DNA of 64,000 nucleotides from Mytilus trossulus (Eukaryota), in NCBI RefSeq assembly GCF_036588685.1, contig NC_086376.1:15872001-15936000 (forward strand). Reading direction: 5' to 3'. The notes beneath the pieces were generated by a model. That model was not told where the DNA came from. It worked only from the letters and a program-made list of their open reading frames with translations, and searched no databases. This document shows positions 3,122-44,976 of the stretch, in pieces (position 1 is the stretch's first letter; each line of letters begins with the position of its first letter). Position numbers and translations under genes: made by a program.

Positions 3122-3329
3122 AGCAAAACATTTATGGAACCTCTGACACCAAACAAAAAACCACAACTGACTAAACAAGAACTTATAATTCTGTTATAAT
3201 GATTTGAATCAATTTCAATATATGACTGTTCATTAGATCATATAGGATGTGTGACTCTAATAAAGAGATAGTCATCTAATCATATTTGTCATCTTTAAAC
3301 TGTACATTGATAACAAGTATGATAACTTA

Positions 3330-13510: not shown

Positions 13511-14080
13511 TGACAAAAGGCCCTTGGGGAAACTACTCAGCTAAAAAATTAAATTTTTTGCTCCATGCCTAAACCAAGAGCCTAGCTATGTGCATACTGA
13601 AAAGTAGCAAAGTATAGACCCCTGGCTTGACATCACACCAATCCAATTGGAACGATGGTTCAAAATAAATGCATGAGGCTATCAGGAAGCCTATGAGGCT
13701 ATCATTCCTAGAGGCTATCATGCCTATGAGGCTATGAGGAAGCCTATAATGAGAAAAAAAATACCTTAGATTTAAAAAAAAATGAATAATTGGGGTTCTT
13801 TGATAAGCCAAATTTAACTGTGTATTTTGGGCCCGGTTTTCAAATTGGTTCGCTTTGAGGACAAAAAGTTCCAAAATTGGTCCGCACTGAGGACACAAAA
13901 TTTTTAGTTTCTTTGATTTGCTGATCTAATCATATATCTAGATTTTGGATATTGGTCCAGATTAGGTAAATGTCCAATTTTAAAATTTGAAGTCTAAGCT
14001 ACCATTCATTTTTTGCCAGAAACGTTAGCTGTGTCGACTAACTTATAGTTTTAAATAAATGAATCATAAAACTGACTTAA

Positions 14081-20806: not shown

Positions 20807-21385
20807 TCAGTGTTTCTTAAAAGATTTCACAATCATTTTGTTCAAGTAATTTCCAAAAGTTTCATTTTGAGGACAATACTTGATAGTGTGAGCGTTATCG
20901 CCACGGGAACCACACATCGGACAAGTGTACTTCCTCAGAACTGGACAAAGTACTTTTCCATCCGGGTCTTTCAGGATATGGCTTTTATAAACTGAATACG
21001 ATTCCTTATTGTTCTTACAAAATACACAGAAGGTTTTCGTTTTCTTTCGATTTTTCGTGGTAATTGTAGGTTGAATGATATGTTGTGATGGATTATTTAT
21101 TATTCGATTCTGCATTTGGTAACGGTCAAGTTCGTCTAAATCACATTCTCTGCCATTTAATCGAAATTCCTCAAGGGCACCAGAACTAACTTCATCGATG
21201 TCTTTCACAGAGAAACATTCCAGTCCTGGATTCGTTAAACTTACATTTAAATACGTTTCACTTTTTCTCCAATCATTCGTATATTGACTACAGGATTGTC
21301 CGCTAGAGTCCTTCGTAGGGTTTCTGAACGTTGAAATTTCCATAGCTCTTAGCAGTTTGCCTAAAAAGATGCGTTGTGACTGCAT
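20807..21385 (-). CDS. nanos: Nanos-family CCHC zinc-finger RNA-binding protein (192 aa, single coding exon)
   Basis: [52 protein letters not shown] matches the zf-nanos spacing C-x2-C-x12-H-x10-C-x7-C-x2-C-x7-H-x4-C exactly; AATAAA on minus strand at 20693-20688. Confidence 0.95.
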
Positions 21386-23039
21386 TTGAATTTACCGTAA
21401 ATTTTACGGTATTCCCAACTTTCTATTTTGGGTGATTTGACCATATCGTTCAGGTTACAGTTGCAAAATACTCTTGCCCCACTTTTACACGGAATGATAA
21501 TTTATTATTTTTTCAAAGTTTTATAGGAGAGTGAGCTTGGGGATATATATATATAATATCAAAAATCAAATCAAACATAAACATATTTGATTTATATATA
21601 ATACGATTACTTTAACGGTATTCAAAAGAAATTCGTTAATCCAGCTGCATGAATTCATACAATACTTTTCAAAGTCATACTGATTACGTGAAAAGTGAAC
21701 ATTTGCTGCTATAAAGTTGTCTAATTCAAGCATAAAACGTGCAGTGCCCCTCTAAATGCCCTCTTTGCTGGTGGTATGACCAAACTGTTGATCAAATGAC
21801 ACATTTACAGGTTGTTTATTGCATTAATTTTATTTCAGTGTAGAAATGAACGTTGACAGAGAGGCTGAGGTTCATTAAGTTTTTATCTGGAGAAAAATTA
21901 AACAGAACATTTTCCTTGATTTACGGATGTTACCACTATTATTGTGTATATCCTGTGCTGTACGGTGGAATGCAAGGTTAACCATAAAAATGTCCAAATT
22001 GTCAAGATGGCACGATTGCAAAACAAATATATTGTTCCGTTTATTTTAGATTATCTAGACTAAACTAAACAACTTTCTACGAACACATTTACCAATACAT
22101 TGCTATGGATATTATTTTTAGTAAACTTTTTTTTATTAATTTATCTGGAATGCTTGGAACAAAAATTTCGGACAGTCACTTTTATAACGAAATTTCACTA
22201 AACTGATACAGCCAAATTCATCACCCTGCCATATATATCTCTGCCAGTCTAAATCTAAAGGAGGCAATATTGTAACTCATTAAAAACTGGATTTTTAAGG
22301 GGGTCACTAACTGTTACATTGATTTCCTTTGTGTACGTTTATTGTCATAATATATGTAGTAAATGAACCCGGCTTAGCGCTATGCAGTGTGAAATATTTC
22401 ATGCACGTTCAAATGACGACAGAAAATTAACATTTTAAAAGAGGAAGTTTAGACTGCCAATGGAAAATTAATGATATGGATAGTGACAGACATTGTGCTT
22501 TGCAATAAGACATCTCAAGGAGTTTTTGCTGATCGGCCTAAGTTACCATTTTTTCAAGCCCGTCATACTTCAGGGTTGTTGAAAAAGAAGTAAGCTTTAC
22601 AGGGGCGAATCTAGCCAGTTTTAAAAAGGGGGATATCAACTCAGAATTAAAGGAGACCCAACCATATGTCGGACTCCCCATTCAAAAGCATTCTAGATCA
22701 TTATAGAAGGGATTTTCCAACCCCCTTTTTCATAAATCCGCAACCGCTTTACATATATATCAAATTACAAACCGTTAATTTTTCCATTATTTTATTTGAA
22801 TAATTTAGATTGAGGGTGTATGTAAATTGTATAATGCAACTGTATTAGGATTTGATCGAAGTCTGTCATCGAAGCAAATTAGCTCGCTTAAAAATTTGGT
22901 TAAGTGATATTATGGCAATCTTCATGACAGAATACATAATCTTCATATTTATTTTCTTATCAACATTTATCGATATAGTTTTCCAGCTTTTTGTTAAATG
23001 GTTATTTATGTCATTTTGTTTCTGCTGGGACCATAATAT

Positions 23040-24074: not shown

Positions 24075-26330
24075 CCACAGCTCCTCAAAAACGGCTACAT
24101 AATCATGTCAGAATCCAACATTAACAGCTTCACAGGATTAAATCAAAACAGCTTTACAGATTTCAATCAATACAGCTTCATAGAAATTAATTAAAACAAC
24201 TTTACACAATTCAACCAAAACAGCTTCACAGAATTCAATCAAAACAGCTTCACAGAATTCAATCAAAATAGCTTTACAAAATTCAACCAGCACAGCTTTA
24301 CAAATTTCAACCAAAACAGCTTGACACAATTCAACGAAAACAGCTTCACATAATTCAACCAAAACAGCTTAAAAGAATTCAATCAAAACAGCTTTACAAA
24401 ATTCAACCAAAACAGCTTCACATAATTCAAAACAGATTGACTTATTAACCATATCAGCTTCAAAGAATTTAACCAAAACAGCTTGACAGAATTCAACCAA
24501 AACAGTATCAAAGAATTCAATCAAAACAGCTTTACAACTTCAACCAAAACAGCTTCACAGAATTCAAAACAGATTGACCTATTAACCATATCAGCTTCAA
24601 AGGATTTAACCAAGACAGCTTTACAGAATTGAATCAAATCAATTTTGCAGAATTCAACAAAAAACAGCTTATTAAAATTCAACCAAAACAGCTTGACACA
24701 ATGCAACCAAAACAGCTTGACATAAAAATAACCAAATCAGCATCACATAATTCAACAAAAAAAGCTTGACAGAATTCAACCAAAAAATATTTTAAGATTT
24801 CAACCTAAAAGAGCTTGACTTAACCAAAACAGCTTTACAGAATTAAACCAAACTGATTAACTGAACCAAAACAGCTAGACAAAAATCCAACCAAAACAGC
24901 TTGATAAAAATTCAACCAAAAAAGCTTCACTGAATTCAATCAAAACAACTTCACATAGTTCATCCAAAACATCTTCACATAATTCAACCAAAACAGCTTG
25001 ACAGATTCCGACCAAAACAGATTCATATATTTCAACCAAAACAGCTTGACAGAATCCAACCAAATTGATTAACTAAACCAAAAACAGCTTCCAAAAATTC
25101 AACCAAAACAGCTTGACATAATTCAACAAAACAGCTTCACAAAATTCAACCAAAACAGTTTCACAAAATTCAACGAAAACAGCTTCACAGAATTCAAACA
25201 CAACAGTTTCACAGGATTCAACCAAAACATTTTCACATAATGCAACCAAAACAGCTCCACAGCATCCAGAAAAAATAGATTGATAAATTCCAACCAAATG
25301 AGCTCCACATAACTCAAATTAAACAGCTTGACAGAAATAAACCAAAACAGTTTCACAAAAGTAAACTAAAACAGCTTCACAAAGTTCAACCAAAACAGCT
25401 TTACAGAATTCAACTAAAACAGCTAAACACAATTCAACCAAAACAGCTTCACAAAATCCAACCAAAACAGCTTCAAAGAATTCAATCAAAACTGCTTTTC
25501 AAAATTCAACCAAAACAGTTTCATAGAATTCAAAACAGATTTACTTATTAACCATATCAGCTTTGAAGGATTAAACCAAGACAGCTTGACACAATACAAC
25601 CAAAACAGCTTGACATAAAAATAACCAAAACAGCATCACATAGTTCAACAAAAACAGCTTGACACATTCCAACCAAAACATAATTTAAGACTTCAACCAA
25701 AAAACAGTTTGACTTAACCAAAACAGCTTAAAAGAATCAAACCAACTTGATTAACTAAACCAAAACAGCTAGTCAAAATCCAACAAAATAGCTTTACTGA
25801 ATTCAATCAAAACAACTTCACATAGTTCAACCAAAACATCTTCACATAATTCAACCAAAACATCTTGACAGATTCCAACCAAAACAGATTCATATATTTC
25901 AACCAAAACAGCTTGACATAACCAAAACAGCTTGACAGAATCCAACCAAATTGATTAACTAAACTAAAACAGCTTGACATAATTCAACCAAAACAGCTTG
26001 ACAGAATTCAACCAAAACAGCTTCACAGAATTCACTCAAAACAGCTTCACAAAATTTAACAAAAACAGTGATCAAATCCAATCAAAACAGCTTCACACAA
26101 TTCAAACACAACAGCTTGACAGAATTCAACCAAAACAGCTTCACATAATTTAACCAAAACAGCTTCACAGAATTCAACAAAAATAGATTGATAAATTCCA
26201 ACCAAAAGAGCTTCACATAAATCAACTAAAACAGCTAGCCAGAAATAAACCAAAACAGCTTCACAAAAGTAAACTAAAACAGCTTCACAAAATTCAACCA
26301 ATACAGCTTGACAGAATCTAACCAAAACAT
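24075..26330. repeat. 24-bp minisatellite (~90 diverged copies), consensus AATTCAACCAAAACAGCTTCACAG
   Basis: Directly visible; the minus-strand ORFs are 8-aa repeats (VEFCEAVL), confirming the period. Confidence 0.95.
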
Positions 26331-27210
26331 AAAAAAAGAGTTGTTATGAACAAAAATAGCAGAGATTGAATTATTTTTTTTGTTAATATGATTCAGGCTT
26401 ATCATGATCCCCTAAGTTCAATAAAGGTGTCATGCATTATAAATATCAGCGTGTGGGTGTATTAGGGATTTATTTCAGGGACAGTGACCAAACTTGTCAT
26501 TTGTCACTGAATATTTATGTCAAAATACCTTTTTTTTAACAATTGCAAGTTGGGACAGAATTTTAAACATTTGAATAATATATGGAAAATTTTGAGTTAT
26601 TATAATCAAGTACCTCCACTTGTTTTGCCAGGTGTGCTCTACTCTGATCTTCAGTGGCTGGTATTACCAGTTTTCCTGCAGAAGGTCAATAGTTCTTTCT
26701 ATGGTGCCACCTAGCATCTACAAATACGTATTAGCCACCACAATATAGCCAAGCATGCTGATTGTGGGGTTTAACACAATCATCCAAGAATATTAAAACT
26801 AAAAAAAAAGTTGAAAAAGTTTGACTCATTAGATTGGCATTAAGCACGCACAAAAATACTACCAAAAGACAAAAAACACAAAGAGTATTGAAAACTAATA
26901 ACTTATAGAGATGTTTTTATTGTTACGAAAAATGCAACAGGGTTATAATGGCAATAATTTAAACTTTCATTTTGAATTTTTTTATATGAATTATAACTGT
27001 ATGATTATTCTCAATATCACAAAGATTTAAATGCATTTTCGTCTAAAATGATTAGATCCCAATAATTATGCACGCAATAATTTCTGAATTTAAAGTAATC
27101 AAAGTTCCTGGTGGTGCTTATACTTTCTTCTCAAACAGATTTCCCTTTACATTTAATTTCATTGACCATGCCTTAATTTCATTTTGCAGATCATATGGAC
27201 ATTTTCCCAT

Positions 27211-30200
27211 ATGGGTGCTGCATGTAGCTCAGAGCCAGAGTATAAGCAGATTCCTAATTCAGCTGTAAAAGAACCTCTCCACCCATCAGATTTACATCCA
27301 AATCCTGCAAAAGTAGTGCAAAAACCTCATGTAGAAAAGAAAGTAGAATTTAACCAAGATACAAAGATAGATACACCATCAAAAATGTCTACTTTAAGTC
27401 CTGGTAAAGCTCCTCCTAAAAGGACAATTTCTGTTCTGAAACAGATGGGAGACGATGAGCGAATGAAGAGAAATCCTGAAATAAAACAATTCTTGACAGA
27501 TTTCATCAATGTTCGTGTTTATATAGAAAATCTTCTAAAAAAAGCTGAGTGTGATGAGTATGAAGAATTACATAAGATGTTAACAGACAAAATCATTGAA
27601 CCATTCAATAAACAGACCAAAGATGAGGGACGATTGTTGATGGGGGATCATCTAGCTAAAATTAGGTAAGATACTTATCCTACAGATATTGTTATGAATT
27701 ATAGTAGACTCCAGCAAATGTGATACAAGTGTAAAAGGGTAGATTACTGTGGATCCATTGATATTAGTTGGATATCAATTTCCGTGAGTTTGGTGGCTAA
27801 GAAAGAACCACAAAGTTAGATGTTCTATAAATAACATATTTTCTAAAGGAATGAATACAGACTTTGCCACAACCACTAAATTAAATATCCACGTATATGC
27901 AAGTTTTCCTCAAACCACGAAAGTTGGTATCAACGAAAGTAAATGAATCCACAGTATATCCATTTAGACAAGCTACTGGAATTATTAAAAAATTTCAAGC
28001 ACAAGAAATTATGCAAATTCCATTATTAAAAATAATTCCAACTTATTAATAGCCGGTTATGCAAACTTTGGCAAAATGAAGAAATCAAATATTCACGAAA
28101 TTTATTCCTCAATCCATGAAAATTGGTACTCAAGAAAATAAAATGAATTCCCAATATTACAAAAACTTCGCTCTCAGTTTAAATCAACTGTCATAAACTA
28201 AAATTGCCTCTATTGGTTTCTCCCCTACTTTTTTTCACTCTAGTTGATACTTCATTTGTTTGAAATAAATGCCATTTTTTTCTAGTTTTGTGAAGCCAGT
28301 TGTAGATTTATACAATAGAATACTAGAGGAGCATGATATCCATGAAGGTATTTCTCCAAGCCTAGATGATGATGATAGTGAGCAACCATATTATATAGCT
28401 ATCGTAGATATCAGATCAATACTCTGGAACTTCTCTGATACCAGTAAAGACTTTGGAATGTCCATTGCTCAAGATACAGATTTCTTTCAGTCTATTGTGA
28501 AGGACTTGCAAATTACTTTTAAAGAAGGACTGGAAAATTTGGTAAGTTTATAAAAAATTGTTTATAAACATTTTTTTTAATACACAACCACCATGAACAG
28601 TGCCTGTTTTCAGCTTTCGTTGTAAAATACTATACTATACTGAATATGTATATATATTAATTATTGTGGAATAAATTTTCATTACCAAATTTTTGGACAA
28701 AATGAAAAAGTGTACAATTTTTGGAGGTATTTTCTAGCATCTTTTTTTCCCTATAGTATTGTAAATGCAAATCAGTGGTTTATAATCCATGACACTTTTT
28801 ATTTCAGACAGCAGGTGAATTTTCCTTCAATTCAGCTGTTGCCATAACAACAAACTGTGGACGAGCTGGAGTACAAAAGTCATCTTTCAATGTAGAGGTC
28901 AAAAAGGACAACTCTGATCCAGTTTCTGTCCACATGGTGGATGTTCTTACTCCTTTTCTCAAGTCAAAAGAACAATGTAAGCATTAATAACAAGGAGATG
29001 AGCATTATACCTTCACTAACTTTACACACTTCTTTTATTCAATGTTTCCAAAATACTTTGTTGATATTGTTCTAGGTCATATCATGATCATATCATGACA
29101 CATTAAGCTGGGTTTTTTTTATATAGAAATTCATGATTTAAAAATATAGGAATTAATCAAACACTTTCTATTACAAAGAAGATAGCACATTTATCAATAG
29201 GATTTACTGTGTCGCGCACAACACTATCTGTACAAAAACAATGGTATGGAAAGTTTATGCGCCACTCAAATTATTAAAACACAGAATAAATATGGAATTT
29301 ATTAAAAATTTCAAACACATGAAACTATGCAAATTCCATCATTAAGAATAATTCCAAATTGAAATAATAGCCTGTTATATATATAAAACAGTACAAGAAA
29401 CCATACAAACAGCTATATATATAAAACAGTACAAGAAACCATACAAACAGCTAACTGAAGACTACTGTAAATTTAGAAATTATTGCATGCATTTTATTTT
29501 ATTATTACCATTTTGTCATTTGTTTTCAATATCTATTGATAATATTCATTTATTTCTAGTTGTGAAATTAACAACCTTGTTGGCATTGTCTTACATGGTA
29601 AATGAAGATCAGAATAGGTTTTTAACTGCAGACCTGTCGTTGTTTGATTTCCTGCTTGAGATGATCAAACTAGCCATGAAAGACAAGGACAGACGTTACT
29701 CTGGTTTCAGTGTTCATGAACTAATTGAAGGACTTGCTGGTCTAGCCAAAAATGATGAGAATAAATTAAAGATAATGGAAAAGAAAGATACATATCCTCT
29801 ACTGAAGAAATCCATTATGCAGAATAAAGCTGAGCAAGAACAGCTAGCAGCAGTCAGGGCTGTATGGGAGTTATCCTTCGTTGAAAAGAACAAAAAGATT
29901 TTAGCTGTAAGTATTTGAATCTGACATATTTGTGGATATATCAATCATCCTTAATTAGAACGATAGTTGTATGTGTGAGTGTATGCAAGTGGGAGAGAAA
30001 GGCTTTTTATTTTTACTTTATGTGATTACATGCTTGTTATGAGCCCTATGATTAAGAAATAAAAATACCTTATCTTTATCTTTATATGTTTTAGTAGGAA
30101 CAGTTTAATGTTGATTTATCAAAGTCATCCGTTTTTTTTTTTAAATTCTGAAGGGTTGAATGTTCAGAATCAGACATGACATTTGCCAAGATGCAGTGGC

Positions 30201-33200
30201 AGATCCAGGCAATGTTTTATTTGACTTGCATGTGATGAAACCTTCCCTTTTCAAAAATGGTTGGATCTGCGACTGAAACTGTTAACATTTATTTAAACAT
30301 TTTAAATTAAATTGAGATGGAAGAGAAAAACACTTTTTATGAGCTATTCAATTTATCCAAAATTTTTGTATAAACAAATAAAGTTTAGAGAAATTTTACA
30401 CAGTTGATTAGTATCCTTTTTAACAGCAGTTCATGTTTTGGTCAGGCATTTACATTAATAAATATGCTTACTAGTACATTACATTCATTCTGTAATTTAA
30501 AGTATGGAAAATTGTTTCATTCACAAAGATAATGCTATTCAACAATATTTTTATATTTGCAGTTTTACATGTTTATGATTTTCATTTTTTGGAATTCAGA
30601 AAGATAAAGATCTGATGTCAAGGTTAGAGAGTTTACAAAAGCATGACAATCAAGATATAGCTAACTCAGCAGGGAGAGCATTGTTTGTTATCAATCCTGA
30701 CAGTGAGTTATCTTTCTGTTGTTTAATCATTGGTGAACACATTAAAACACTAGAATATGCAATAACAAAACATTATTTCTATTTTAAATAAGGAGATATG
30801 GTATGATTGCTTATGGGACATATATTCACTAAAGGATAGACGTAAGCAACTACATGTTTAGGTCACCATGCAAATTTCATCATTGACCAACCCTTTACTA
30901 TATAATCAGCTGCAATAAAGTCAGCCATGGAATAAAAAAATGTGAAATCCTTTAAAACAAAAACAAAACAAAACAGCAACCTAATTTATGACAGAAAAAT
31001 GATGGAAATATAATGGCACCCACTGATTTACAGGCTCCTAACATGGGATAGACACTTAAAGAATGAATTGTCTCCCCTTGTTAATCTTAATTTATTGTAT
31101 GATTCTTAAACTGCATTTAATTCAAAGGTTAAAGCAATGAAGAAATAAAAAGTAAATGATCAAACATGCAATAAGGGAAAGCATTTAAAATTTACTTTAA
31201 AAAAAAAAATCCTTTCATATATTTATTATTAATATAATATATTTTGGCGGAAACATATTTAGTTCCGTGAATATATACTTCCGCTATTGTATTCATTTGT
31301 TGAATTAAGTTTTTTTTTATAAATTAGATGAGAAAAATCTGATGAAGTCGGTAGCTGATTCTCACTCTAAGCTGGAACACCCTGAACAAGAACATATCAT
31401 GATAAGTTACCAGTGGAGTAACCAGAAAACTATACTTCAGGTCAGTTATCTCCCCTTACCCTGAACAAGAACATATCATGATAAGTTACCAGTGGAGTAA
31501 ACAGAAAACTAAACTACAGGTCAGTTATCTCCCCTTACCCTGAACCAGAACATATCATGATAAGTTACCAGTGGAGTAACCAGAAAACTATACTTCAGGT
31601 CAGTTATCTCCCCTTACCCTGGACAAGAACATATCATGATAAGTTACCAGTGGAGTAACCAGAAAACTATACTTCAGGTCAGTTATCTCCCCTTACCCCT
31701 GAACAAGAACATATCATGATAAGTTACCAGTGGAGTAACCAGAAAACTATACTTCAGGTCAGTGATCTCCCCTCACCCTGAACAAGAACATATCAGGATA
31801 AGTTACCAGTGGAGTACCCAAAAAACTATACTCCAGGTCAGTTATCTCCTCTTACAAGAACATATCATGATAGGTTACCAGTGGAGTAACCAGAAAAATA
31901 TACTCAGGTCAGTTATCTCCCCTTACCCTGGACAAGAACAAATCATGATAAGTTACCAGTGGAGTAACCAGAAAACTATACTACAGGTCAGTTATCTCCC
32001 CTTACCCTGGACAAAAAGGTATCATGATAAGTTACCAGTGGAGAAACCAGAAAACTATACTACAGGTCAGTTATCTCCCCTTACCCTGGACAAGAACAAA
32101 TCATGATAAGTTACCAGTGGAGTAACCAGAAAACTATACTACAGGTCAGTTATCTCCCCTTACCCTGGACAAAAACGTATCATGATAAGTTACCAGTGGA
32201 GAAACCAGAAAACTATACTACAGGTCAGTTATCTCCCCTTACCCTGGACAAGAACAAATCATGATAAGTTACCAGTGGAGTAACCAGAAAACTATACTAC
32301 AGGTCAGTTATCTCCCCTTACCCTGAACAAGAACATATCATGATAAGTTACCAGTGGAGTAACCAGAAAACTATACTTCAGGTCAGTTATCTCCCCTTAC
32401 CCTGAACAAGAACATATCATGATAAGTTACCAGTGGAGTAACCAGAAAACTATACTACAGGTCAGTTATCTCCCCTTACCCTGGACAAAAACTTATCATG
32501 ATTAGTTACCAGTGGAGTAACCAGAAAACTATACTTCAGGTCAGTTATCTCCCCTTACCCCTGAACAAGAACATATCATGATAAATTACCAGTGAAGTAA
32601 CCAAAAAACTATACTCCAGATCAGTTATCTCCACTTACAAGAACATATCATGATAAGTTAGTTACCAGTGGAGTAACCAGAAAACTATACTTCAGGTCAG
32701 TTACCTCCCCTTACCCTGAACAAGAACATATCATGATAAGTTACCAATGGAGTAACCAGAAAACTATACTTCAGGTCAGTTATCTCCCCTTACCCTGAAC
32801 CAGAACATATCATGATAAGTTACCAGTGGAGTGACCAGAAAACTATACTACAGGTCAGTTATCTCCTCTTACAAGAACATATCATGATAAGTTACCAGTG
32901 GAGTAACCAAAAAACTATACTCCAGGTCAGTTATCTCCTCTTACAAGAACATATCATGATAAGTTAGTTACCAGTGGAGTAACCAGAAAACTATACTTCA
33001 GGTCAGTTACCTCCCCTTACCCTGAACAAGAACATATCATGATAAGTTACCAATGGAGTAACCAGAAAACTATACTTCAGGTCAGTTATCTCCCCTTACC
33101 CTGAACAAAAACATATCATGATAAGTTACCAGTGGAGTAACTTGAAAACTATACTTCAGGTCAGTTACCTCCCCTTACCCTGAACAAGAACATATCATGA

Positions 33201-36200
33201 TAAGTTACCAGTGGAGTAACCAGAAAACTATACTTCAGGTCAGTTACCTCCCCTTACCCTGAACAAGAACATATCATGATAAGTTACCAGTGGAGAAACC
33301 AGAAAACTATACTTCAGGTCAGTTATCTCCCCTTACCCTGGACAAGAACATATCATGATAAGTTACCAGTGGAGTAACCGGAAAACTATACTTCAGGTCA
33401 GTTATCTCCCCTTACCCTGGACAAAAACAAATCATGATAAGTTACCAGTGGAGTAACCAGAAAACTATACTTCAGGTCAGTTATCTCCCCTTACCCCTGA
33501 ACAAGAACAAATCATGATAAGTTACCAGTGGAGTAACCAGAAAACTATACTACAGGTCAGTTATCTCCCCTTACCCTGGACAAAAACAAATCATGATAAG
33601 TTACCAGTGGAGTAACCAGAAAACTATACTTCAGGTCAGTTATCTCCCCTTACCCCTGAACAAGAACGTATCATGATAAGTTACCAATGGAGTAACCAGA
33701 AAACTATACTTCAGGTCAGTTATCTCCCCTTACCCCTGAACAAGAACATATCATGATAAGTTACCAGTGGAGTAACCATAAAACTATACTACAGGTCAGT
33801 TATCTCCCCTTACCCTGGACAAAAACGTATCATGATAAGTTACCAGTGGAGAAACCAGAAAACTATACTACAGGTCAGTTATCTCCCCTTACCCTGGACA
33901 AGAACAAATCATGATAAGTTACCAGTGGAGTAACCAGAAAACTATACTACAGGTCAGTTATCTCCCCTTACCCTGGACAAAAACGTATCATGATAAGTTA
34001 CCAGTGGAGAAACCAGAAAACTATACTACAGGTCAGTTATCTCCCCTTACCCTGGACAAGAACAAATCATGATAGGTTACCAGTGGAGTAACCAGAAAAC
34101 TATACTACAGGTCAGTTATCTCCCCTTACCCTGAACAAGAACATATCATGATAAGTTACCAGTGGAGTAACCAGAAAACTATACTTCAGGTCAGTTATCT
34201 CCCCTTACCCTGAACAAGAACATATCATGATAAGTTACCAGTGGAGTAACCAGAAAACTATACTACAGGTCAGTTATCTCCCCTTACCCTGGACAAAAAC
34301 TTATCATGATTAGTTACCAGTGGAGTAACCAGAAAACTATACTTCAGGTCAGTTATCTCCCCTTACCCCTGAACAAGAACATATCATGATAAATTACCAG
34401 TGAAGTAACCAAAAAACTATACTCCAGATCAGTTATCTCCTCTTACAAGAACATATCATGATAAGTTAGTTACCAGTGGAGTAACCAGAAAACTATACTT
34501 CAGGTCAGTTACCTCCCCTTACCCTGAACAAGAACATATCATGATAAGTTACCAATGGAGTAACCAGAAAACTATACTTCAGGTCAGTTATCTCCCCTTA
34601 CCCTGAACCAGAACATATCATGATAAGTTACCAGTGGAGTGACCAGAAAACTATACTACAGGTCAGTTATCTCCTCTTACAAGAACATATCATGATAAGT
34701 TACCAGTGGAGTAACCAAAAAACTATACTCCAGGTCAGTTATCTCCTCTTACAAGAACATATCATGATAAGTTAGTTACCAGTGGAGTAACCAGAAAACT
34801 ATACATCAGGTCAGTTACCTCCCCTTACCCTGAACAAGAACATATCATGATAAGTTACCAGTGGAGTAACCAGAAAACTATACTTCATGTCAGTTATCTC
34901 CCCTTACCCTGAACAAAAACATATCATGATAAGTTACCAGTGGAGTAACTTGAAAACTATACTTCAGGTCAGTTACCTCCCCTTACCCTGAACAAGAACA
35001 TATCATGATAAGTTACCAGTGGAGTAACCAGAAAACTATACTTCAGGTCAGTTACCTCCCCTTACCCTGAACAAGAACATATCATGATAAGTTACCAATG
35101 GAGTAACCAGAAAACTATACTTCAGGTCAGTTATCTCCCCTTACCCTGGACAAGAACATATCATGATAAGTTACCAGTGGAGTAACCAGAAAACTATACT
35201 ACAGGTCAGTTATCTCCCCTTACCCTGGACAAAAACAAATCATGATAAGTTACCAGTGGAGTAACCAGAAAACTATACTTCAGGTCAGTTATCTCCCCTT
35301 ACCCCTGAACAAGAACATATCATGATAAGTTACCAGTGGAGTAACCAGAAAACTATACTTCATGTCAGTGATCTCCCCTCACCCTGAACAAGAACATATC
35401 AGGATAAGTTACCAGTGGAGTAACCAAAAAACTATACTCCAGGTCAGTTATCTCCTCTTACAAGAACATATCATGATAGGTTACCAGTGGAGTAACCAGA
35501 AAAATATACTCAGGTCAGTTATCTCCCCTTACCCTGGACAAGAACAAATCATGATAAGTTACCAGTGGAGTAACCAGAAAACTATACTACAGGTCAGTTA
35601 TCTCCCCTTACCCTGGACAAAAACGTATCATGATAAGTTACCAGTGGGGAAACCAGAAAACTATACTACAGGTCAGTTATCTCCCCTTACCCTGGACAAG
35701 AACAAATCATGATAAGTTACCAGTGGAGTAACCAGAAAACTATACTACAGGTCAGTTATCTCCCCTTACCCTGGACAAAAACGTATCATGATAAGTTACC
35801 AGTGGAGAAACCAGAAAACTATACTACAGGTCAGTTATCTCCCCTTACCCTGGACAAGAACAAATCATGATAAGTTACCAGTGGAGTAACCAGAAAACTA
35901 TACTACAGGTCAGTTATCTCCCCTTACCCTGAACAAGAACATATCATGATAAGTTACCAGTGGAGTAACCAGAAAACTATACTTCAGGTCAGTTATCTCC
36001 CCTTACCCTGAACAAGAACATATCATGATAAGTTACCAGTGGAGTAACCAGAAAACTATACTTCAGGTCAGTTATCTCCCCTTACCCTGAACAAGAACAT
36101 ATCATGATAAGTTACCAGTGGAGTAACCAGAAAACTATCCTACAGGTCAGTTATCTCCCCTTACCCTGGACAAAAACTTATCATGATTAGTTACCAGTGG

Positions 36201-39200
36201 AGTAACCAGAAAACTATACTTCAGGTCAGTTATCTCCCCTTACCCCTGAACAAGAACATATCATGATAAATTACCAGTGAAGTAACCAAAAAACTATACT
36301 CCAGATCAGTTATCTCCTCTTACAAGAACATATCATGATAAGTTAGTTACCAGTGGAGTAACCAGAAAACTATACTTCAGGTCAGTTACCTCCCCTTACC
36401 CTGAACAAGAACATATCATGATAAGTTACCAATGGAGTAACCAGAAAACTATACTTCAGGTCAGTTATCTCCCCTTACCCTGAACAAGAACATATCATGA
36501 TAATTTACCAATGGAGTAACCAGAAAACTATACTTCAGGTCAGTTATCTCCCCTTACCCTGGACAAGAACATATCATGATAAGTTACCAGTGGAGTAACC
36601 AGAAAACTATACTTCAGGTCAGTTATCTCCCCTTACCCTGGACAAAAACATATCATGATAAGTTACCAGTGGAGTAACCAGAAAACTATACTTCAGGTCA
36701 GTTACCTCCCCTTACCCTGAACAAGAACATATCATGATAAGTTACCAATGGAGTAACCAGAAAACTATACTTCAGGTCAGTTATCTCCCCTTATCCTGGA
36801 CAAGAACATATCATGATAAGTTACTAGTGGAGTAACCGGAAAACTATACTTCAGGTCAGTTATCTCCCCTTACCCTGGACAAAAACAAATCATGATAAGT
36901 TACCAGTGGAGTAACCAGAAAACTATACTTCAGGTCAGTTATCTCCCCTTACCCCTGAACAAGAACAAATCATGATAAGTTACCAGTGGAGTAACCAGAA
37001 AACTATACTACAGGTCAGTTATCTCCCCTTACCCTGGACAAAAACAAATCATGATAAGTTACCAGTGGAGTAACCAGAAAACTATACTTCAGGTCAGTTA
37101 TCTCCCCTTACCCCTGAACAAGAACGTATCATGATAAGTTACCAATGGAGTAACCAGAAAACTATACTTCAGGTCAGTTATCTCCCCTTACCCCTGAACA
37201 AGAACATATCATGATAAGTTACCAGTGGAGTAACCAGAAAACTATACTACAGGTCAGTTATCTCCCCTTACCCTGAACAAGAACGTATCATGATAAGTTA
37301 CCAATGGAGTAACCAGAAAACTATACTTCAGGTCAGTGATCTCCCCTCACCCTGAACAAGAACATATCAGGATAAGTTACCAGTGGAGTAACCAAAAACT
37401 ATACTCCAGGTCAGTTATCTCCTCTTACAAGAACATATCATGATAGGTTACCAGTGGAGTAACCAGAAAAATATACTCAGGTCAGTTATCTCCCCTTACC
37501 CTGGACAAGAACAAATCATGATAAGTTACCAGTGGAGTAACCAGAAAACTATACTACAGGTCAGTTATCTCCCCTTACCCTGGACAAAAACGTATCATGA
37601 TAAGTTACCAGTGGAGAAACCAGAAAACTATACTACAGGTCAGTTATCTCCCCTTACCCTGGACAAGAACAAATCATGATAAGTTACCAGTGGAGTAACC
37701 AGAAAACTATACTACAGGTCAGTTATCTCCCCTTACCCTGGACAAAAACGTATCATGATAAGTTACCAGTGGAGAAACCAGAAAACTATACTACAGGTCA
37801 GTTATCTCCCCTTACCCTGGACAAGAACATATCATGATAAGTTAGTTACCAGTGGAGTAACCAGAAAACTATACTACAGGTCAGTTACCTCCCCTTACCC
37901 TGAACAAGAACATATCATGATAAGTTACCAATGGAGTAACCAGAAAACTATACTTCAGGTCAGTTATCTCCCCTTACCCTGAACCAGAACATATCATGAT
38001 AAGTTACCAGTGGAGTGACCAGAAAACTATACTACAGGTCAGTTATCTCCTCTTACAAGAACATATCATGATAAGTTACCAGTGGAGTAACCAAAAAACT
38101 ATACTCCAGATCAGTTATCTCCTCTTACAAGAACAGTTAGTTACCAGTGGAGTAACCAGAAAACTATACTTCAGGTCAGTTACCTCCCCTTACCCTGAAC
38201 AAGAACATATCATGATAAGTTACCAATGGAGTAACCAGAAAACTATACTTCAGGTCAGTTATCTCCCCTTACCCTGAACAAAAACATATCATGATAAGTT
38301 ACCAGTGGAGTAACTTGAAAACTATACTTCAGGTCAGTTACCTCCCCTTACCCTGAACAAGAACATATCATGATAAGTTACCAGTGGAGTAACCAGAAAA
38401 CTATACTTCAGGTCAGTTACCTCCCCTTACCCTGAACAAGAACATATCATGATAAGTTACCAATGGAGTAACCAGAAAACTATACTTCAGGTCAGTTATC
38501 TCCCCTTACCCTGGACAAGAACATATCATGATAAGTTACCAGTGGAGTAACCGGAAAACTATACTTCAGGTCAGTTATCTCCCCTTACCCTGGACAAAAA
38601 CAAATCATGATAAGTTACCAGTGGAGTAACCAGAAAACTATACTTCAGGTCAGTTATCTCCCCTTACCCCTGAACAAGAACAAATCATGATAAGTTACCA
38701 GTGGAGTAACCAGAAAACTATACTACAGGTCAGTTATCTCCCCTTACCCTGGACAAAAACAAATCATGATAAGTTACCAGTGGAGTAACCAGAAAACTAT
38801 ACTTCAGGTCAGTTATCTCCCCTTACCCCTGAACAAGAACGTATCATGATAAGTTACCAATGGAGTAACCAGAAAACTATACTTCAGGTCAGTTATCTCC
38901 CCTTACCCCTGAACAAGAACATATCATGATAAGTTACCAGTGGAGTAACCATAAAACTATACTACAGGTCAGTTATCTCCCCTTACCCTGGACAAAAACG
39001 TATCATGATAAGTTACCAGTGGAGAAACCAGAAAACTATACTACAGGTCAGTTATCTCCCCTTACCCTGGACAAGAACAAATCATGATAAGTTACCAGTG
39101 GAGTAACCAGAAAACTATACTACAGGTCAGTTATCTCCCCTTACCCTGGACAAAAACGTATCATGATAAGTTACCAGTGGAGAAACCAGAAAACTATACT

Positions 39201-42200
39201 ACAGGTCAGTTATCTCCCCTTACCCTGGACAAGAACAAATCATGATAAGTTACCAGTGGAGTAACCAGAAAACTATACTACAGGTCAGTTATCTCCCCTT
39301 ACCCTGAACAAGAACATATCATGATAAGTTACCAGTGGAGTAACCAGAAAACTATACTTCAGGTCAGTTATCTCCCCTTACCCTGAACAAGAACATATCA
39401 AGATAAGTTACCAGTGGAGTAACCAGAAAACTATACTACAGGTCAGTTATCTCCCCTTACCCTGGACAAAAACTTATCATGATTAGTTACCAGTGGAGTA
39501 ACCAGAAAACTATACTTCAGGTCAGTTATCTCCCCTTACCCCTGAACAAGAACATATCATGATAAATTACCAGTGAAGTAACCAAAAAACTATACTCCAG
39601 ATCAGTTATCTCCTCTTACAAGAACATATCATGATAAGTTAGTTACCAGTGGAGTAACCAGAAAACTATACTTCAGGTCAGTTACCTCCCCTTACCCTGA
39701 ACAAGAACATATCATGATAAGTTACCAATGGAGTAACCAGAAAACTATACTTCAGGTCAGTTATCTCCCCTTACCCTGAACCAGAACATATCATGATAAG
39801 TTACCAGTGGAGTGACCAGAAAACTATACTACAGGTCAGTTATCTCCTCTTACAAGAACATATCATGATAAGTTACCAGTGGAGTAACCAAAAAACTATA
39901 CTCCAGGTCAGTTATCTCCTCTTACAAGAACATATCATGATAAGTTAGTTACCAGTGGAGTAACCAGAAAACTATACTTCAGGTCAGTTACCTCCCCTTA
40001 CCCTGAACAAGAACATATCATGATAAGTTACCAATGGAGTAACCAGAAAACTATACTTCATGTCAGTTATCTCCCCTTACCCTGAACAAAAACATATCAT
40101 GATAAGTTACCAGTGGAGTAACCAGAAAACTATACTTCAGGTCAGTTACCTCCCCTTACCCTGAACAAGAACATATCATGATAAGTTACCAGTGGAGTAA
40201 CCAGAAAACTATACTTCAGATCAGTTACCTCCCCTTACCCTGAACAAGAACATATCATGATAAGTTACCAATGGAGTAACCAGAAAACTATACTTCAGGT
40301 CAGTTATCTCCCCTTACCCTGGACAAGAACATATCATGATAAGTTACTAGTGGAGTAACCGGAAAACTATACTTCAGGTCAGTTATCTCCCCTTACCCTG
40401 GACAAAAACAAATCATGATAAGTTACCAGTGGAGTAACCAGAAAACTATACTTCAGGTCAGTTATCTCCCCTTACCCCTGAACAAGAACAAATCATGATA
40501 AGTTACCAGTGGAGTAACCAGAAAACTATACTACAGGTCAGTTATCTCCCCTTACCCTGGACAAAAACAAATCATGATAAGTTACCAGTGGAGTAACCAG
40601 AAAACTATACTTCAGGTCAGTTATCTCCCCTTACCCCTGAACAAGAACGTATCATGATAAGTTACCAATGGAGTAACCAGAAAACTATACTTCAGGTCAG
40701 TTATCTCCCCTTACCCCTGAACAAGAACATATCATGATAAGTTACCAGTGGAGTAACCAGAAAACTATACTACAGGTCAGTTATCTCCCCTTACCCTGAA
40801 CAAGAACATATCATGATAAGTTACCAATGGAGTAACCAGAAAACTATACTTCAGGTCAGTTATCTCCCCTTACCCTGAACAAAAACATATCATGATAAGT
40901 TACCAGTGGAGTAACCAGAAAACTATACTTCAGGTCAGTTATCTCCCCTTACCCTGAACAAGAACATATCATGATATGTATTTTGATATTTCGGAAGTTT
41001 ATATAATATATGTGTTTTAGAGAATGAAAAATTTTGCATTTGTCAAAACAAGAACATATCATGATAAGTTACCAGTGGAATAATTCATGACATTAATTGT
41101 TTTACAGATAAAGGATAAATTAAGACAAAACAATTTCCCAGTATGGATAGATGTAGATTTCATGGAAGGATCTATGCTTCAGATGATGGCTTCAGCTATA
41201 GAAAAGGCATCAGTGGTGTTAATTTGTTATTCAGAAAAATACAAGGACAGTAAAAACTGCAGAACAGGTTTGATAGAAAATTTTCTGTTATTTGATAAAA
41301 AATAGTAATGAAATAATATTGATAATCTTAATTTAAGGGTATAATCTAGCACATGATGACTAATTTAGTTGGTAACCTTTTTCAAGGGTGCCCACTCGTA
41401 CCAATTAAATATTGCAAAACATAGATCATTAATACGAAATACTGCATTTGATTACTTGAAAAAATTGACCTGGACTTTCAAGTCCTCAAAATATTGGATA
41501 CCATTCTAATCAAACGCACCATTATTATTTTTTTGTAAACTATTTAACTAAAGTGGCATATTTGAGATCTTAACAAAATTTTAAAACTTGTTGATCAAAC
41601 ATGTAAAGTAGCATACCCATTTGGAACAACATTCCTAATGCGCCTCGAAATGAAGAACTCAAAAGTCATGTGTAAAGAAAAAATCTCTGTGTAGTGATAT
41701 TGGACATGTATCTATTTTACAAATGACTGAGCTTAACCATTTGTGGTGATTAGGAAAGTAGAGGAACATAGAATAAATGTGTAAAAACTATGGAGCTATT
41801 AATTTACCAAATGGAGCCACATCATAAAAGGATGTTCGGGGTATGCCAATTTACGGGAAAAGTAATCTCACTTCATATGTATAATAGCTATGCAGATTAA
41901 AACAAGTAAAGTAGACTGTTGATATTCCATGTATCATATTTTTTGTTTTGTAGAGGCAGAGTATGCTTTTGCCCGAGACAAAATGATAATTCCTGTCTTA
42001 TTACAAAACCGATACAGACCTGATGGCTGGCTGGGTATTCTTATTGGATCGAAGAAATTCTATGATTTTAGTGGCAAATATGATTTTGAGAAAAAGTTTC
42101 AGGAATTGAAAGGTGAATTAGAAGGCCAGTTGTTACAAAAGGTATATTTTTATATCATATTGAGGTTACTTGAGACCATATACATATAACAGCAAAAAGA

Positions 42201-44976
42201 TATAAGGGAGAAATAAAAAAATAAAAAGTTTTGAACCTTGAAATTGTCATTGTATACTATATATAAAAAGCAGTTGTACATTCTATGACAGTAACAAATT
42301 TATAAATTACAACCAAGCAGGAATAACTTATGACCTAAGTACTATAAGATATAGTTTTATTAACTCACCTGGCCTGAAGGGCCAAGTGAGCTTTTCTCAT
42401 CACTTGGCGTCCGTTGTCCGTCGTCGTTAACTTTTTACATTTTGAACTTCTTCTAGAGAACCACTGAATGGAATGAAATCAAACAAGGCATGAATGTTCC
42501 TTATGAGGTGCTGACCAAGTGTTGTTACTTTGTAGCCTATCCATCATCCAAGATGGCCGCCAGCGGGGGACTTAGTTTAAAATAGGACCCTATGGGAAAT
42601 GCATACAAATGACTTCTTTTAGAGAACCACTTAATGGAATGAAACCAAACATGGCACAAATGTTCCTTATAAGGTGCTGACCAAGTGTTGTTACTTTGTA
42701 GCTGATCCATTATCCAAGATGGCCACCAGCTAGGGACACATTTTAACATTGGACCCTATGGGAAATGCATACAAATGACTTCCTTTAGAGAACAACTGAA
42801 TGGAATGAAACCAAACATGGCAAGAATGTTCCTTATGAGGTGCTGACCAAGTGTTGTTACTTTGTAGCTGATCCATCATCAAAGATGCCTGCCAGCAGGG
42901 GACTTAGTTTAACATAGGACCCTATAAGAAATACAAACAAATTTCTACTTTTAGAGAAACACTGAATGGAATGAACTCAAACATAGCATGAATGTTCCTT
43001 ATGACATGCTGACCAAGTGTTGTTACTTTGTAGCCAATCCATCAACCAATGTGGCTTCCAGCAGGGGGCTTGGTTTAACATAGGACCCTATGGGAAAGAC
43101 ATACAAATGTCTTCTTTTAGAGAACCACTGAATTGAATGAAAGCAAACATAGCATAAATGTTCCTTTCTTAATGAGGTGCTGTTCAAGTGTTGTTTCTTT
43201 GTAGTCAAATTTTATCTTTTTATTTAATTTCAAAACCCCAAGTAGAATCAGGTGAGTGATACAGGCTCTTGAGAGCCTCTAGTTGCAAATCTTGTACAAA
43301 AATGCTCATGTATTTTATATATATATTTTACTCTTATATTAATCATATGTAATTGTCTCATATCTTTTAGGCTAATGCTGCTAAGACAGGAGAAGCTTAA
43401 CATCTAATACATATATATTTCTAAAGATTGGTGATGGTTGGTTGTTTTCTTTAAACTCTTGGCATGTTTAACCCCACTGCCTTTTTGTGCCTGTCAGAAT
43501 TTTAATTCATCTACATGTTTTGAAGTTTTGTTTGGTGTCCATTTTCACTGAACTAATACACAATTTTCTTTAGGGGCCAGCTGAATCAAGCCTCCTAGTT
43601 GGGGATTTTATCACTGTGTTGAAGACACATTGGTGGCCTTCAGCTGTTGTCTGCTCTTTAGTCTAGTTGTTGTCTATTTGACACATTCCCCATTTCTTTT
43701 CTCAATTTCAAACTGTTGGAAAAAATATATTTAGCATTATGTTAACATTTATGAATTACAGAAAAGACAGCCTGCAATGATGAAGGATTTAGTGAATCAA
43801 GCTGTTAATAGTGAACATGCAGATGTGGAGAAAGAAATTGGTGTATTAAGTTGGACAAAACAGGACTTACAAAACTGGTTAAAACAAAATCAATTAGAAT
43901 CGTAAGTTACCTATGTAAATCTATTTGGATGGAGAGTTTTCTCATTGGCACTCATACAACATTTCTCTTTTACATTGATCAAAATAAATATGTTTTAGAA
44001 GTGCAGGTTTTCTTTGAATTTATCAAAAGTAAAAATAACAGGAATTTTATGTACTTCTGAAATTTTGATAATTGAGCAAATTTTGGATTACCCTATACTG
44101 CATAAATATTAAGTGCATTATCATTTAGTCAAAGTTATTCATTTTAAAAATCACACAACATAACTACCAGTACTAATTTTTGTCATATGTTTTATTTCTT
44201 AGGTTTTCTGGCCTTCATTCGCTGACCGGTGAACAAATTGGATTCTTGTACAAATTATTTAGAAGGGTAAGCTATATAAAAACATACAGTATAGTCACTT
44301 TATAGGTAATGTAGAAAGGTGAGATATATAAAATTTACGGTATAAATTATTTAGAAGTGTAAGGACTTATGTCCATTCTTCAAAAATTCTAAAAATAAAT
44401 GCATGCAATAATTTCTGAATAAACAACAGATAAAATCTAAGCCACTAAACAGAACAATAATAACAAACAAACAAAAAATGAAAAATAAATGACCTGTAAT
44501 TTGTAGTTTTAACAACATTTTAGACAAAAATGTGTACTGTACATATTTTTTACTGTAATGTTTACATTTATATCATTGTTGTCACTTTGTAAACACTTTA
44601 ATGTTTGTTTCACTTATTGATCACAAGTTTCTTGGAACAAGGGAACTGTTAGCCTGTCACACATGTGATCTCTCTTTGTCCTGAACATGCATGCAATATT
44701 TGCCACTGGACATTAGGCAACCAACATCTCTTGTTTAATTTTTATTAACTAGTAACAGGAAAAAAGATAGTACAGTCATTATCAATTCTCTGTTACAACA
44801 TTCATGAATTTTTAGTGAAATCTTTAATTTTTTTATTTATACAGGCTCCAGATTTTTTCTACAAATGTTTGGAAGAAAAACTTGGATTGAAGTCTTTAGA
44901 AGATCTGATGAAATTTGACAAAGCTTTAGAAAAACTAAGCAGAGATCATCCAGATATTAACCAACTTCTTTTATGA
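27211..44976 (+). CDS. Intracellular helical/ARM-like - TIR - SAM domain protein (~708 aa, 11 coding exons)
   Basis: Exons 27211-27665, 28286-28541, 28808-28976, 29560-29906, 30600-30702, 31328-31440, 41108-41267, 41954-42141, 43762-43901, 44203-44266, 44845-44976; all introns GT-AG and phase-compatible, total 2127 nt. ARM-like helices (LIEGLAGLAKNDENK, AVRAVWELSFVEKNK); TIR_2 (HIMISYQW...VWIDVD...AIEKASVVLICYSEKYKDSKNCRTEAEYA...IIPVLL...DGWLG); SAM-like (VLSWTKQDLQNWLKQNQL). Confidence 0.88.
31381..40976 (+). repeat. Tandem array of ~120 copies of a ~79-bp exon/intron-junction unit, with higher-order structure
   Basis: Unit CCTGAACAAGAACATATCATGATAAGTTACCAGTGGAGTAACCAGAAAACTATACTTCAG|GTCAGTTATCTCCCCTTAC; the first copy is the real 3' end of coding exon 6. 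Length variants: +1, -7 and +4 bp. Confidence 0.98.
42362..43283. mobile_element. Helentron-associated / pearl(CvA)-like non-autonomous element with ~165-bp internal tandem repeats (about 4.5 copies), in a TIR-gene intron
   Basis: Subterminal inverted repeat ctcacctg...caggtgag, 5' cgtccgtcgtc microsatellite, 3' hairpin aggctcttgagagcct; repeats start at ~42458, 42623, 42789, 42955 and 43121. Confidence 0.75.
43371..43400 (+). CDS. Candidate alternative terminal exon (ANAAKTGEA*) giving a SAM-less isoform
   Basis: Acceptor tctcatatcttttag, phase 0 compatible with the donor at 42142, non-AT-rich codons then TAA. Confidence 0.4.
   Translation, partial: ANAAKTGEA

What the first reader, a model, noticed from the sequence alone, without database searches (positions are those of the whole stretch)
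27211..44976. Acylated ARM-like - TIR - SAM protein: SARM1's domain set in a different order, with the catalytic glutamate kept
Seen: the spliced TIR reads SEKYKDSKNCRTEAEYA, with the Glu codon split across an intron (G at 41267, AG at 41954-41955). Established: the alphaC Glu of the S.WC..E-type motif is the catalytic residue of NAD+-cleaving TIRs (SARM1, plant TNL, bacterial TIRs), and SARM1 is ARM-SAM-SAM-TIR with ARM autoinhibition and SAM oligomerisation. Inference: a membrane-anchored, autoinhibited, SAM-oligomerising NADase or nucleotide-signal generator rather than a TLR-type adaptor. Similar intracellular TIR architectures have been catalogued in invertebrates, so the function is more likely to be new than the family.
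Basis: partly seen in the sequence, partly recalled or inferred. Interest (0 to 1): 0.7.

Follow-up and report, generated by a model that had tools for sequence, protein, structure and literature searches.

The report
Mussel ARM-TIR-SAM protein, SARM1 look-alike
This is a real, spliced mussel gene whose protein carries the same three kinds of domain as the nerve-degeneration enzyme SARM1 in a different order; it belongs to a large, already catalogued invertebrate family that likely cuts NAD+ at a membrane but has no tested member that I could find.

Summary
Observation confirmed. Eleven GT-AG exons give a 708-residue protein, and a spliced contig joins them all. ARM, TIR and SAM folds are each supported in a 91%-identical Mytilus orthologue. 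Glu535 is split as stated, aligns with the catalytic Glu of Cat1 and SARM1, and is kept in 159 of 160 aligned relatives. Corrections: (1) the motif is S-x-N-C-x-x-E; the tryptophan linked to cADPR cyclisation is absent in all 131 aligned relatives, favouring plain NAD+ hydrolysis; (2) it is not SARM1: the genome has two SARM1-type genes elsewhere; (3) the family is huge (1,144 clusters) and catalogued as ARM-TIR, and catalytic animal TIRs are in a 2026 preprint, where only 12 of 61 Glu-bearing animal TIRs were active. Autoinhibition, oligomerisation and acylation remain inferred. The scan noted both this family (sea urchin) and such arrays before on other DNA. New member of a known kind.

The parts
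27211..27665 (+). Coding exon 1: MGAACSS myristoylation/palmitoylation-type start, disordered residues 1-75, first ARM-like helices
   Evidence: motif tally
28286..28541 (+). Exon 2, ARM region (conserved WNxxD)
28808..28976 (+). Exon 3, ARM region
29560..29906 (+). Exon 4, best-conserved armadillo repeats
30600..30702 (+). Exon 5, last ARM repeat
31328..31440 (+). Exon 6: linker and start of TIR (HIMISYQW); its last 58 nt are the exonic part of the repeat unit
31379..40976 (+). Tandem array, 79-bp unit, 122 copies: end of exon 6 + donor GTCAGT + intron start; 113 intact CAG|GTCAGT donors; only the first gives a full protein
   Evidence: first donor used
41108..41267 (+). Exon 7: TIR betaB to alphaC (W494, D496, S529, N531, C532, R533) and first base of the Glu535 codon
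41954..42141 (+). Exon 8: rest of Glu535 codon, TIR second half (YRPDGWLG)
43762..43901 (+). Exon 9: linker and SAM helix 1
44203..44266 (+). Exon 10: SAM
44845..44976 (+). Exon 11: SAM C-terminal helices and stop

Best explanation
The locus is an expressed mussel gene for a 708-residue protein built of a likely lipid-anchored flexible tail, an armadillo solenoid, a TIR domain and one SAM domain, and it likely works as a membrane-tethered, ligand-gated NAD+ hydrolase. Shown here: gene structure, splicing, the three folds, the Glu register and family-wide conservation of the pocket. Inferred: Gly2 is myristoylated (Cys5 perhaps palmitoylated) and holds the protein at a membrane. The ARM groove, with conserved Trp/Asn positions, binds a trigger or keeps the TIR apart. 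The single SAM then clusters the proteins so that TIRs meet head to tail and form the two-chain active site known from SARM1 and Cat1. Because the WxxxE aromatic is replaced by Asn, the main product is predicted to be linear ADP-ribose plus nicotinamide, giving local NAD+ loss as an immune or stress output. It is a parallel family to SARM1, not the mussel SARM1.
For: Glu kept in 159 of 160 rows that have a residue there (162 proteins) and in 130 of 131 in the fold alignment. The best solved-structure hit of the 13-sequence profile, and of a TIR-centred profile, is the NADase Cat1 (E 1e-7; E 1e-5). Cat1 pocket residues S7, D33, S68 and E74 (PMC12162218, passages) align to S470, D496, S529 and E535, which are 98-100% conserved. 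MAFFT places NCRTE on WVHRE of the genome's own SARM1-type genes, with equal spacing to the downstream IIP. The TIR is the most conserved part (mean top-residue share 0.59, against 0.43 for late ARM and SAM). The model TIR matches SARM1 TIR at Z 16.2, rmsd 2.1 A over 125 residues. The SAM model (pLDDT 95.9) has SARM1 SAM1 as top match at Z 9.3, rmsd 2.5 A over 76, tied within 1 Z with CNK2 and Hyphen SAMs. An MG-type motif starts 52 of 108 relatives whose N-terminal region is present. The position of the WxxxE Trp holds N 90, S 27, Y 2, W 0 of 131; an aromatic there was found in all 12 cyclising TIRs (bioRxiv 2022.05.07.491051, passages).
Against: No activity, acylation, autoinhibition or oligomer was measured. 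Of 61 Glu-bearing animal TIRs tested in E. coli only 12 were active, and TLR2, IL-1R9 and IL-1R10 keep the Glu yet were inactive (bioRxiv 2026.04.20.719644). Loss of the alphaC Trp lowers activity in AbTir and SARM1 and abolishes it in L6 and ROQ1, so Asn531 could also mean a weak or dead enzyme. Adaptor TIRs fit the model as well as SARM1 does (TRR-2 Z 17.7; MyD88 and TIRAP 15.9). About half of the relatives with an N-terminal region lack the MG motif (56 of 108; some may be mis-called starts). One SAM, not SARM1's tandem pair, is present, and many SAMs do not self-associate (own knowledge). The structures are of an orthologue (91% identical), and the Glu was matched by sequence alignment, not by atom-level superposition.
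Confidence: 0.5

Rival explanations
1. The TIR is catalytic but makes a signalling nucleotide (canonical cADPR or a product not yet described) rather than simply consuming NAD+; the family-specific invariant residues (W473, R533, the YxPDGWLG segment) would shape that product.
For: Most active animal TIRs in the 2026 preprint made cADPR without depleting NAD+, including mollusc, rotifer, echinoderm, lancelet and fish proteins, and ARM is among the partner domains named in its Fig. 3 legend. The family keeps an unusual set of near-invariant residues beyond the common pocket.
Against: No aromatic at the WxxxE position in 129 of 131 relatives, whereas 12 of 12 cyclising TIRs had one. No receptor-like gene was noticed among the window's long ORFs.
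Confidence: 0.22
2. It is a membrane-tethered scaffold or adaptor whose TIR and SAM recruit other proteins; the Glu is retained for structural reasons.
For: Earlier surveys proposed adaptor or regulator roles for ecTIR-DC proteins (PMC6321704, passage). The Glu is kept in inactive TIRs. The alphaC Trp is missing. Adaptor TIR folds match as well as enzymes do.
Against: Conservation is concentrated on the residues that line the Cat1 NAD+ pocket. The nearest solved TIR by sequence is an NADase. Family TIRs group apart from the TLR-like and other mussel TIRs sampled.
Confidence: 0.22
3. It is a rearranged SARM1 orthologue or a recent derivative of SARM1, with SARM1's NMN/NAD+ sensing.
For: The SAM model's top match is SARM1 SAM1. 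A tree forced to hold family and SARM1 TIRs together is not rejected (p-AU 0.287). A fragment-based family profile hits C. elegans TIR-1 at E 1e-8.
Against: The genome has two SARM1-type genes with ARM-SAM-SAM-TIR order on another contig. The SARM1 group motifs PDVFISY, E(R/K)LEAG and H(D/E)YQ (PMC7075850) are absent here. The family TIR profile scores a mussel SARM1 TIR 17 bits against 210 for this protein. All 28 family TIRs form one side of a 96/94 branch without SARM1. The ARM region is nearer to Vac8, ARMC4, beta-catenin and APC; SARM1 is not among the best 60 hits shown.
Confidence: 0.04
4. The gene is broken or mis-assembled, because 122 copies of the exon end and donor site disable splicing.
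For: Any donor but the first leaves a stop at codon 489 (12 of the 113 donors tried). One M. edulis database model ends in this array (P0001).
Against: Spliced contigs join the first donor to exon 7, and orthologues are full length and 98% identical in the TIR.
Confidence: 0.02

Closest known systems
Invertebrate ARM-TIR proteins / ecTIR-DC families (oyster PMC4346834, figure legend and passages; Aplysia PMC9334734, passages, 11 ARM-TIR genes; ecTIR-DC as cited in PMC6321704 and PMC5549309)
   Same: Armadillo fold followed by a Pfam TIR_2 domain, no transmembrane segment, multigene in molluscs, function unknown.
   Different: The passages seen do not mention the C-terminal SAM, the acylation motif or a catalytic role. 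The defining survey (PMID 28109746) was not held, so the exact ecTIR-DC family number is unknown.
SARM1 / dSarm / TIR-1
   Same: ARM, SAM and TIR folds in one chain; alphaC Glu in register; SAM most like SARM1 SAM1.
   Different: Order ARM-TIR-SAM; one SAM; Asn in place of W638; SARM1 group motifs absent; MG-type start; multigene; true SARM1-type genes lie elsewhere in this genome.
Cat1 (CRISPR-associated TIR 1) and related bacterial TIR_2 NADases
   Same: Nearest solved TIR by sequence; S/D/S/E pocket residues align.
   Different: Cat1 has a CARF sensor and keeps the Trp; about 24% identity over 120 residues; K121/Y122 of the second chain could not be aligned.
Toshchakov and Neuwald TIR group 18 (PMC7075850, passages)
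   Same: Protozoan and lower-metazoan TIRs of mixed architecture in cnidarians, molluscs, echinoderms, lancelets, tunicates and bony fish; the named relatives here span most of that range.
   Different: The group's residue pattern was not in the passages seen, so membership is by taxon range only.
Amphioxus 'mirage' minisatellites (PMC3087553, abstract and section 16)
   Same: Tandem copies of an exon-intron boundary with intact splice signals that do not prevent normal splicing.
   Different: 122 copies over 9.6 kb here, against 3-6 units in the globin example.

Membership tests
ARM-TIR (invertebrate) | Armadillo-type fold | tested here: met
   Family profile E 1.4e-32 to Vac8; VIA Z 19.3, rmsd 6.6 over 305 for the best ARM chain
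ARM-TIR (invertebrate) | TIR domain after the ARM region, no LRR or transmembrane part | tested here: met
   TIR_2 E 2e-22 in 13 of 13 members; model secondary structure
ecTIR-DC numbered families | Assignment to one of the published families | not testable with these tools
   Paper not held
SARM1 | Order ARM-SAM-SAM-TIR with C-terminal TIR | tested here: not met
   Order is ARM-TIR-SAM with one SAM
SARM1 | Group 24 motifs PDVFISY, E(R/K)LEAG, H(D/E)YQ | tested here: not met
   Here EHIMISY, DFMEGS, YDFSG; the motifs are present in the genome's SARM1-type genes
SARM1 | TIR falls within the SARM1 clade | tested here: not met
   Family is one side of a 96/94 branch without SARM1 (bootstrap not settled, long branches); a sister relation is not rejected
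SARM1 | NMN/NAD+ allosteric pocket in ARM | tested here: inconclusive
   The family ARM profile scores mussel SARM1 ARM frames only weakly (best E 7e-4 among 458 frames); pocket residues were not mapped
Catalytic (NAD+-cleaving) TIRs | Glu on alphaC in register | tested here: met
   Alignments to Cat1 E74 and mussel SARM1; 159 of 160
Catalytic (NAD+-cleaving) TIRs | betaA Ser, betaB Asp and pre-alphaC Ser pocket residues | tested here: met
   98-100% conserved; align to Cat1 S7, D33, S68
Cyclising TIRs (cADPR isomers) | Aromatic residue at the WxxxE position | tested here: not met
   Asn531; W 0 and Y 2 of 131
Catalytic (NAD+-cleaving) TIRs | Measured NAD+ cleavage on oligomerisation | not testable with these tools
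   Needs an assay
SAM domain | Five-helix SAM fold | tested here: met
   The best 15 VIA rows are all SAM-containing chains, best Z 9.3, rmsd 2.5 over 76; relatives carry Pfam SAM_1/SAM_2 at the aligned place
N-myristoylated proteins | MGxxxS start, conserved | tested here: met
   MGAACS; 60 of 162 proteins, 52 of 108 with the N-region present; the motif definition is recalled, the modification itself untested
Mirage minisatellites | Repeat unit spans the exon-intron boundary and normal splicing persists | tested here: met

The most novel reading that the evidence does not exclude
This family is an old, second SARM1-like system of animals: an acylated ARM sensor that, on binding a pathogen or damage ligand, clusters through its SAM and makes an NAD+-derived product not yet described (set by the Asn and invariant Trp/Arg residues), and SARM1 shares an ancestor with it by reshuffling of the same ARM, SAM and TIR modules.
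Probability: 0.15. Interest if true: 0.75.

Novelty: new member of a known kind. Interest (0 to 1): 0.38.

Why it matters
The family is large (1,144 clusters at 50% identity with E up to 1e-30). Among the relatives whose names were looked up it reaches molluscs, brachiopods, corals, hemichordates, tunicates, lancelets, early-branching bony fishes and a picozoan, yet the records seen are called 'uncharacterized', 'hypothetical' or carry automatic labels. If it cleaves NAD+, animals have a second ARM/SAM-gated TIR enzyme besides SARM1, which bears on how invertebrate innate immunity signals and on how SARM1 was assembled. This locus gives a clean test case: a full-length expressed gene, a clear catalytic mutant, and a sharp prediction (no cyclic product, because the Trp is missing). 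The gene itself is an ordinary member, and the general idea of catalytic animal TIRs is already in a preprint, so the interest is moderate.

Tried and rejected
Complex prediction of ARM (76-458) with TIR-SAM (468-713) of the orthologue: no answer, score 0.00, alignment not used; no evidence either way. SAM self-association was not run (one job). Foldseek of the SAM model: no match at E up to 0.001, though the weak rows were all SAM domains. Pfam on single exons found no SAM and only weak ARM hits; SAM_3 at E 0.05-0.1 on whole proteins. Atlas search of the SAM part gave only leads under 0.9. The whole-protein Atlas search listed mollusc and rotifer TIR_2 clusters first, then green-algal ARM/SAM/TIR clusters of unknown domain order, then SARM1; not followed up. 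A possible alternative last exon at 43371-43400 (would drop the SAM) had no depth in 4 of 4 runs; rejected for now. Shared introns with SARM1: the intron at the Glu is phase 1 here and phase 0 just before the Glu in both SARM1-type genes, one base apart; not counted as shared. The look-up of sequencing runs listed no holder on record as RNA, and the small-RNA run X21 laid no reads; neither bears on expression. Atom-level superposition of the Glu could not be read, as the fold tools give ranges only. PMID 28109746 was not held. Paper searches listed no paper devoted to an ARM-TIR-SAM family or its acylation (judged from listings; passages read only for the papers cited). Subscription papers and the preprint's Table S4 and figures were not visible, and they may hold a tested member.
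Full report
1. Observation. I built the gene from the window by splice signals: 11 coding exons between 27211 and 44976, ten GT-AG introns and one open frame of 708 residues (a one-base slip in my first try was corrected). A search with exon 4 returned 15 proteins among 876 candidates. The Mytilus ones are 91-93% identical to the model over its length and 126 of 128 identical in the TIR, so the source is a Mytilus mussel. In run X1 (assembled contigs, guessed RNA) a 2137-nt record covers exons 1-6 at record positions 18-1478, without introns. A record of equal length and depth covers exon 7 from position 1479 on and exons 8-11. I infer that they are one record; then all ten junctions are as modelled. 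X2, X3 and X15 contigs and 1-5 raw RNA reads of X24 per joint show several of the same joints. The refuting case 'transcripts do not join the exons' is not met.

2. Anatomy. Folds were made on the M. californianus orthologue P0002 (91.4% identical), with 131 of the 162 proteins then held; I left out very long, multi-TIR and short ones. Mean pLDDT is 85.9 and pTM 0.76; residues 1-75 are disordered, 77-447 helical, 473-606 alpha/beta, 630-712 helical. The helical region is armadillo: profile E 1e-32 to Vac8, best VIA Z 19.3 with rmsd 6.6 over 305. The TIR matches Hydra TRR-2 (Z 17.7, 2.3 A/123), SARM1 (16.2, 2.1 A/125), MyD88 and TIRAP (15.9) and Cat1 (14.5, 2.0 A/120), so the fold alone does not tell enzyme from adaptor. 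The last 86 residues, folded alone (pLDDT 95.9), are a SAM: SARM1 SAM1 Z 9.3 (2.5 A/76), CNK2 8.5, Hyphen 8.4, tied within 1 Z. Short relatives carry Pfam SAM_1/SAM_2 at the aligned place.

3. The pocket. The best solved-structure hit by sequence is the NADase Cat1. Its active-site S7, D33, S68 and E74 (PMC12162218, passages) align with S470, D496, S529 and E535, which are 98-100% conserved in the 131-row alignment. The Glu is kept in 159 of 160 rows that have a residue there, out of 162 proteins. In 9 of 10 paralogous loci fetched, the exon also ends C-R-x-G|GT, so the split codon is a family trait; the tenth did not match the pattern. Against the reading: the residue four before the Glu is Asn (90 N, 27 S, 2 Y, 0 W of 131). 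bioRxiv 2022.05.07.491051 (passages) found an aromatic there in 12 of 12 cyclising TIRs, and reports lower or lost activity when it is removed from AbTir, SARM1, L6 and ROQ1. This predicts a non-cyclising hydrolase, or a weak one. bioRxiv 2026.04.20.719644 (parts 1-3 of 6 and passages; figures and supplements not visible) found 12 of 61 Glu-bearing animal TIRs active, mostly making cADPR, and names TLR2, IL-1R9 and IL-1R10 as inactive despite the Glu.

4. N-terminus. MGAACSS fits the N-myristoylation consensus (recalled). 60 of 162 proteins start with such a motif, 25 of them with a Cys in the first ten residues; among rows with the N-terminal region present it is 52 of 108. I ran no null for this; by my own knowledge a few percent of eukaryotic proteins carry the motif. 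Acylation itself is untested.

5. Family and relation to SARM1. The 13-sequence profile finds 9,889, 3,858 and 1,144 clusters at E up to 1e-3, 1e-10 and 1e-30. 120 of the 131 chosen rows cover ARM, TIR and SAM (the rows were chosen for coverage). Names looked up for 20 representatives, include bivalves, gastropods, Lingula, Orbicella, Ptychodera, Saccoglossus, Clavelina, Branchiostoma, Polypterus, Arapaima, Scleropages and a picozoan. A motif search of the genome gave 4 matches, 2 of them SARM1-type genes with SAM exons before the TIR. They carry the SARM1 group motifs of PMC7075850 (passages); this gene does not. In a 50-row TIR tree (28 family, 2 mussel SARM1-type, 20 other mussel TIRs) the family is one side of a 96/94 branch; the bootstrap had not settled and long branches meet. 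Holding family and SARM1 together is not rejected (p-AU 0.287). So it is not SARM1, and a distant sister relation is open.

6. The intron 6 array. Bases 31379-40976 are 122 copies of a 79-bp unit: the last 58 nt of exon 6 plus the donor and intron start, with 113 intact CAG|GTCAGT donors and 50 unit variants. Of the first 12 donors tried, only the first gives the full protein; the others keep a stop at codon 489. The transcript seen uses the first. An M. edulis database model reads into a similar array. This is the 'mirage' type of PMC3087553 (abstract and section 16), a lead taken from earlier notes of this scan. It is probably tolerated and incidental.

7. Mechanism. I commit to a lipid-tethered, ARM-gated, SAM-clustered NAD+ hydrolase giving linear ADP-ribose (0.5). 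Shown: gene, splicing, folds, conservation. Inferred by analogy with SARM1 and Cat1, where the active site forms between two TIRs: gating, clustering and activity. The ARM groove keeps Trp/Asn positions (N206, D209, N259, N368, W403 in P0002 numbering) that suit a peptide ligand, which is an inference. Rivals: signal generator (0.22), scaffold (0.22), SARM1 derivative (0.04), broken gene (0.02).

8. What is known. ARM-TIR proteins are listed for oyster (PMC4346834, legend and passages) and Aplysia (PMC9334734, passages). TIR-SAM is noted in amphioxus (PMC2575513, passages). ecTIR-DC families are cited in PMC6321704 and PMC5549309 (passages); the defining paper was not held. PMC5094078 and PMC9153377 (passages) added context only. 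Searches listed no study of this three-domain family; the unseen supplements of the 2026 preprint may hold a tested member.

9. Verdict. A real gene, correctly read, and a new member of a known but functionally untested kind. Interest 0.38; the boldest open reading has probability 0.15 and would merit 0.75.

Noticed in passing
window 1101-3193, 8182-9704, 15570-16907 (minus strand): Three tandem genes, each with a CARD exon (Pfam E 6e-11, 1.5e-8, 5e-10) followed by a long coiled-coil ORF; possible caspase adaptors.
   Followed up: partly
window 20810-21391 (minus strand): Nanos zinc-finger ORF (Pfam E 3e-27).
   Followed up: partly
window 57382-59172 (minus strand): A 597-codon uninterrupted coiled-coil ORF that looks like IFT74 (name recalled; Pfam gave no specific hit); intronless, perhaps a retrocopy.
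   Followed up: no
window 12886-13536 (minus strand): ORF with weak GDSL/SGNH and tyrosine-recombinase hits; likely a mobile-element remnant.
   Followed up: no
window 27195-27227: An out-of-frame upstream ATG in the spliced 5' leader opens a 10-codon frame overlapping the main start; it could damp translation.
   Followed up: no
window 24109-26329: A 24-bp tandem array, about 95 copies, strongly strand-skewed, just upstream of the first coding exon.
   Followed up: no
L015 and L016: Two paralogous TIR loci also carry 2-3 tandem copies of an exon end plus donor, here at the Glu-codon intron.
   Followed up: no
L009-L013: Five paralogues have the first half of the TIR in one exon, i.e. they lack the intron that holds the array in this gene.
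   Followed up: partly
L005-L008 (G000 C8, near 33.0 and 61.3 Mb): Two separate SARM1-type genes in this mussel genome.
   Followed up: partly
L026: A mussel TIR of another architecture also has the S-x-N-C-x-x-E motif and groups next to the family.
   Followed up: no
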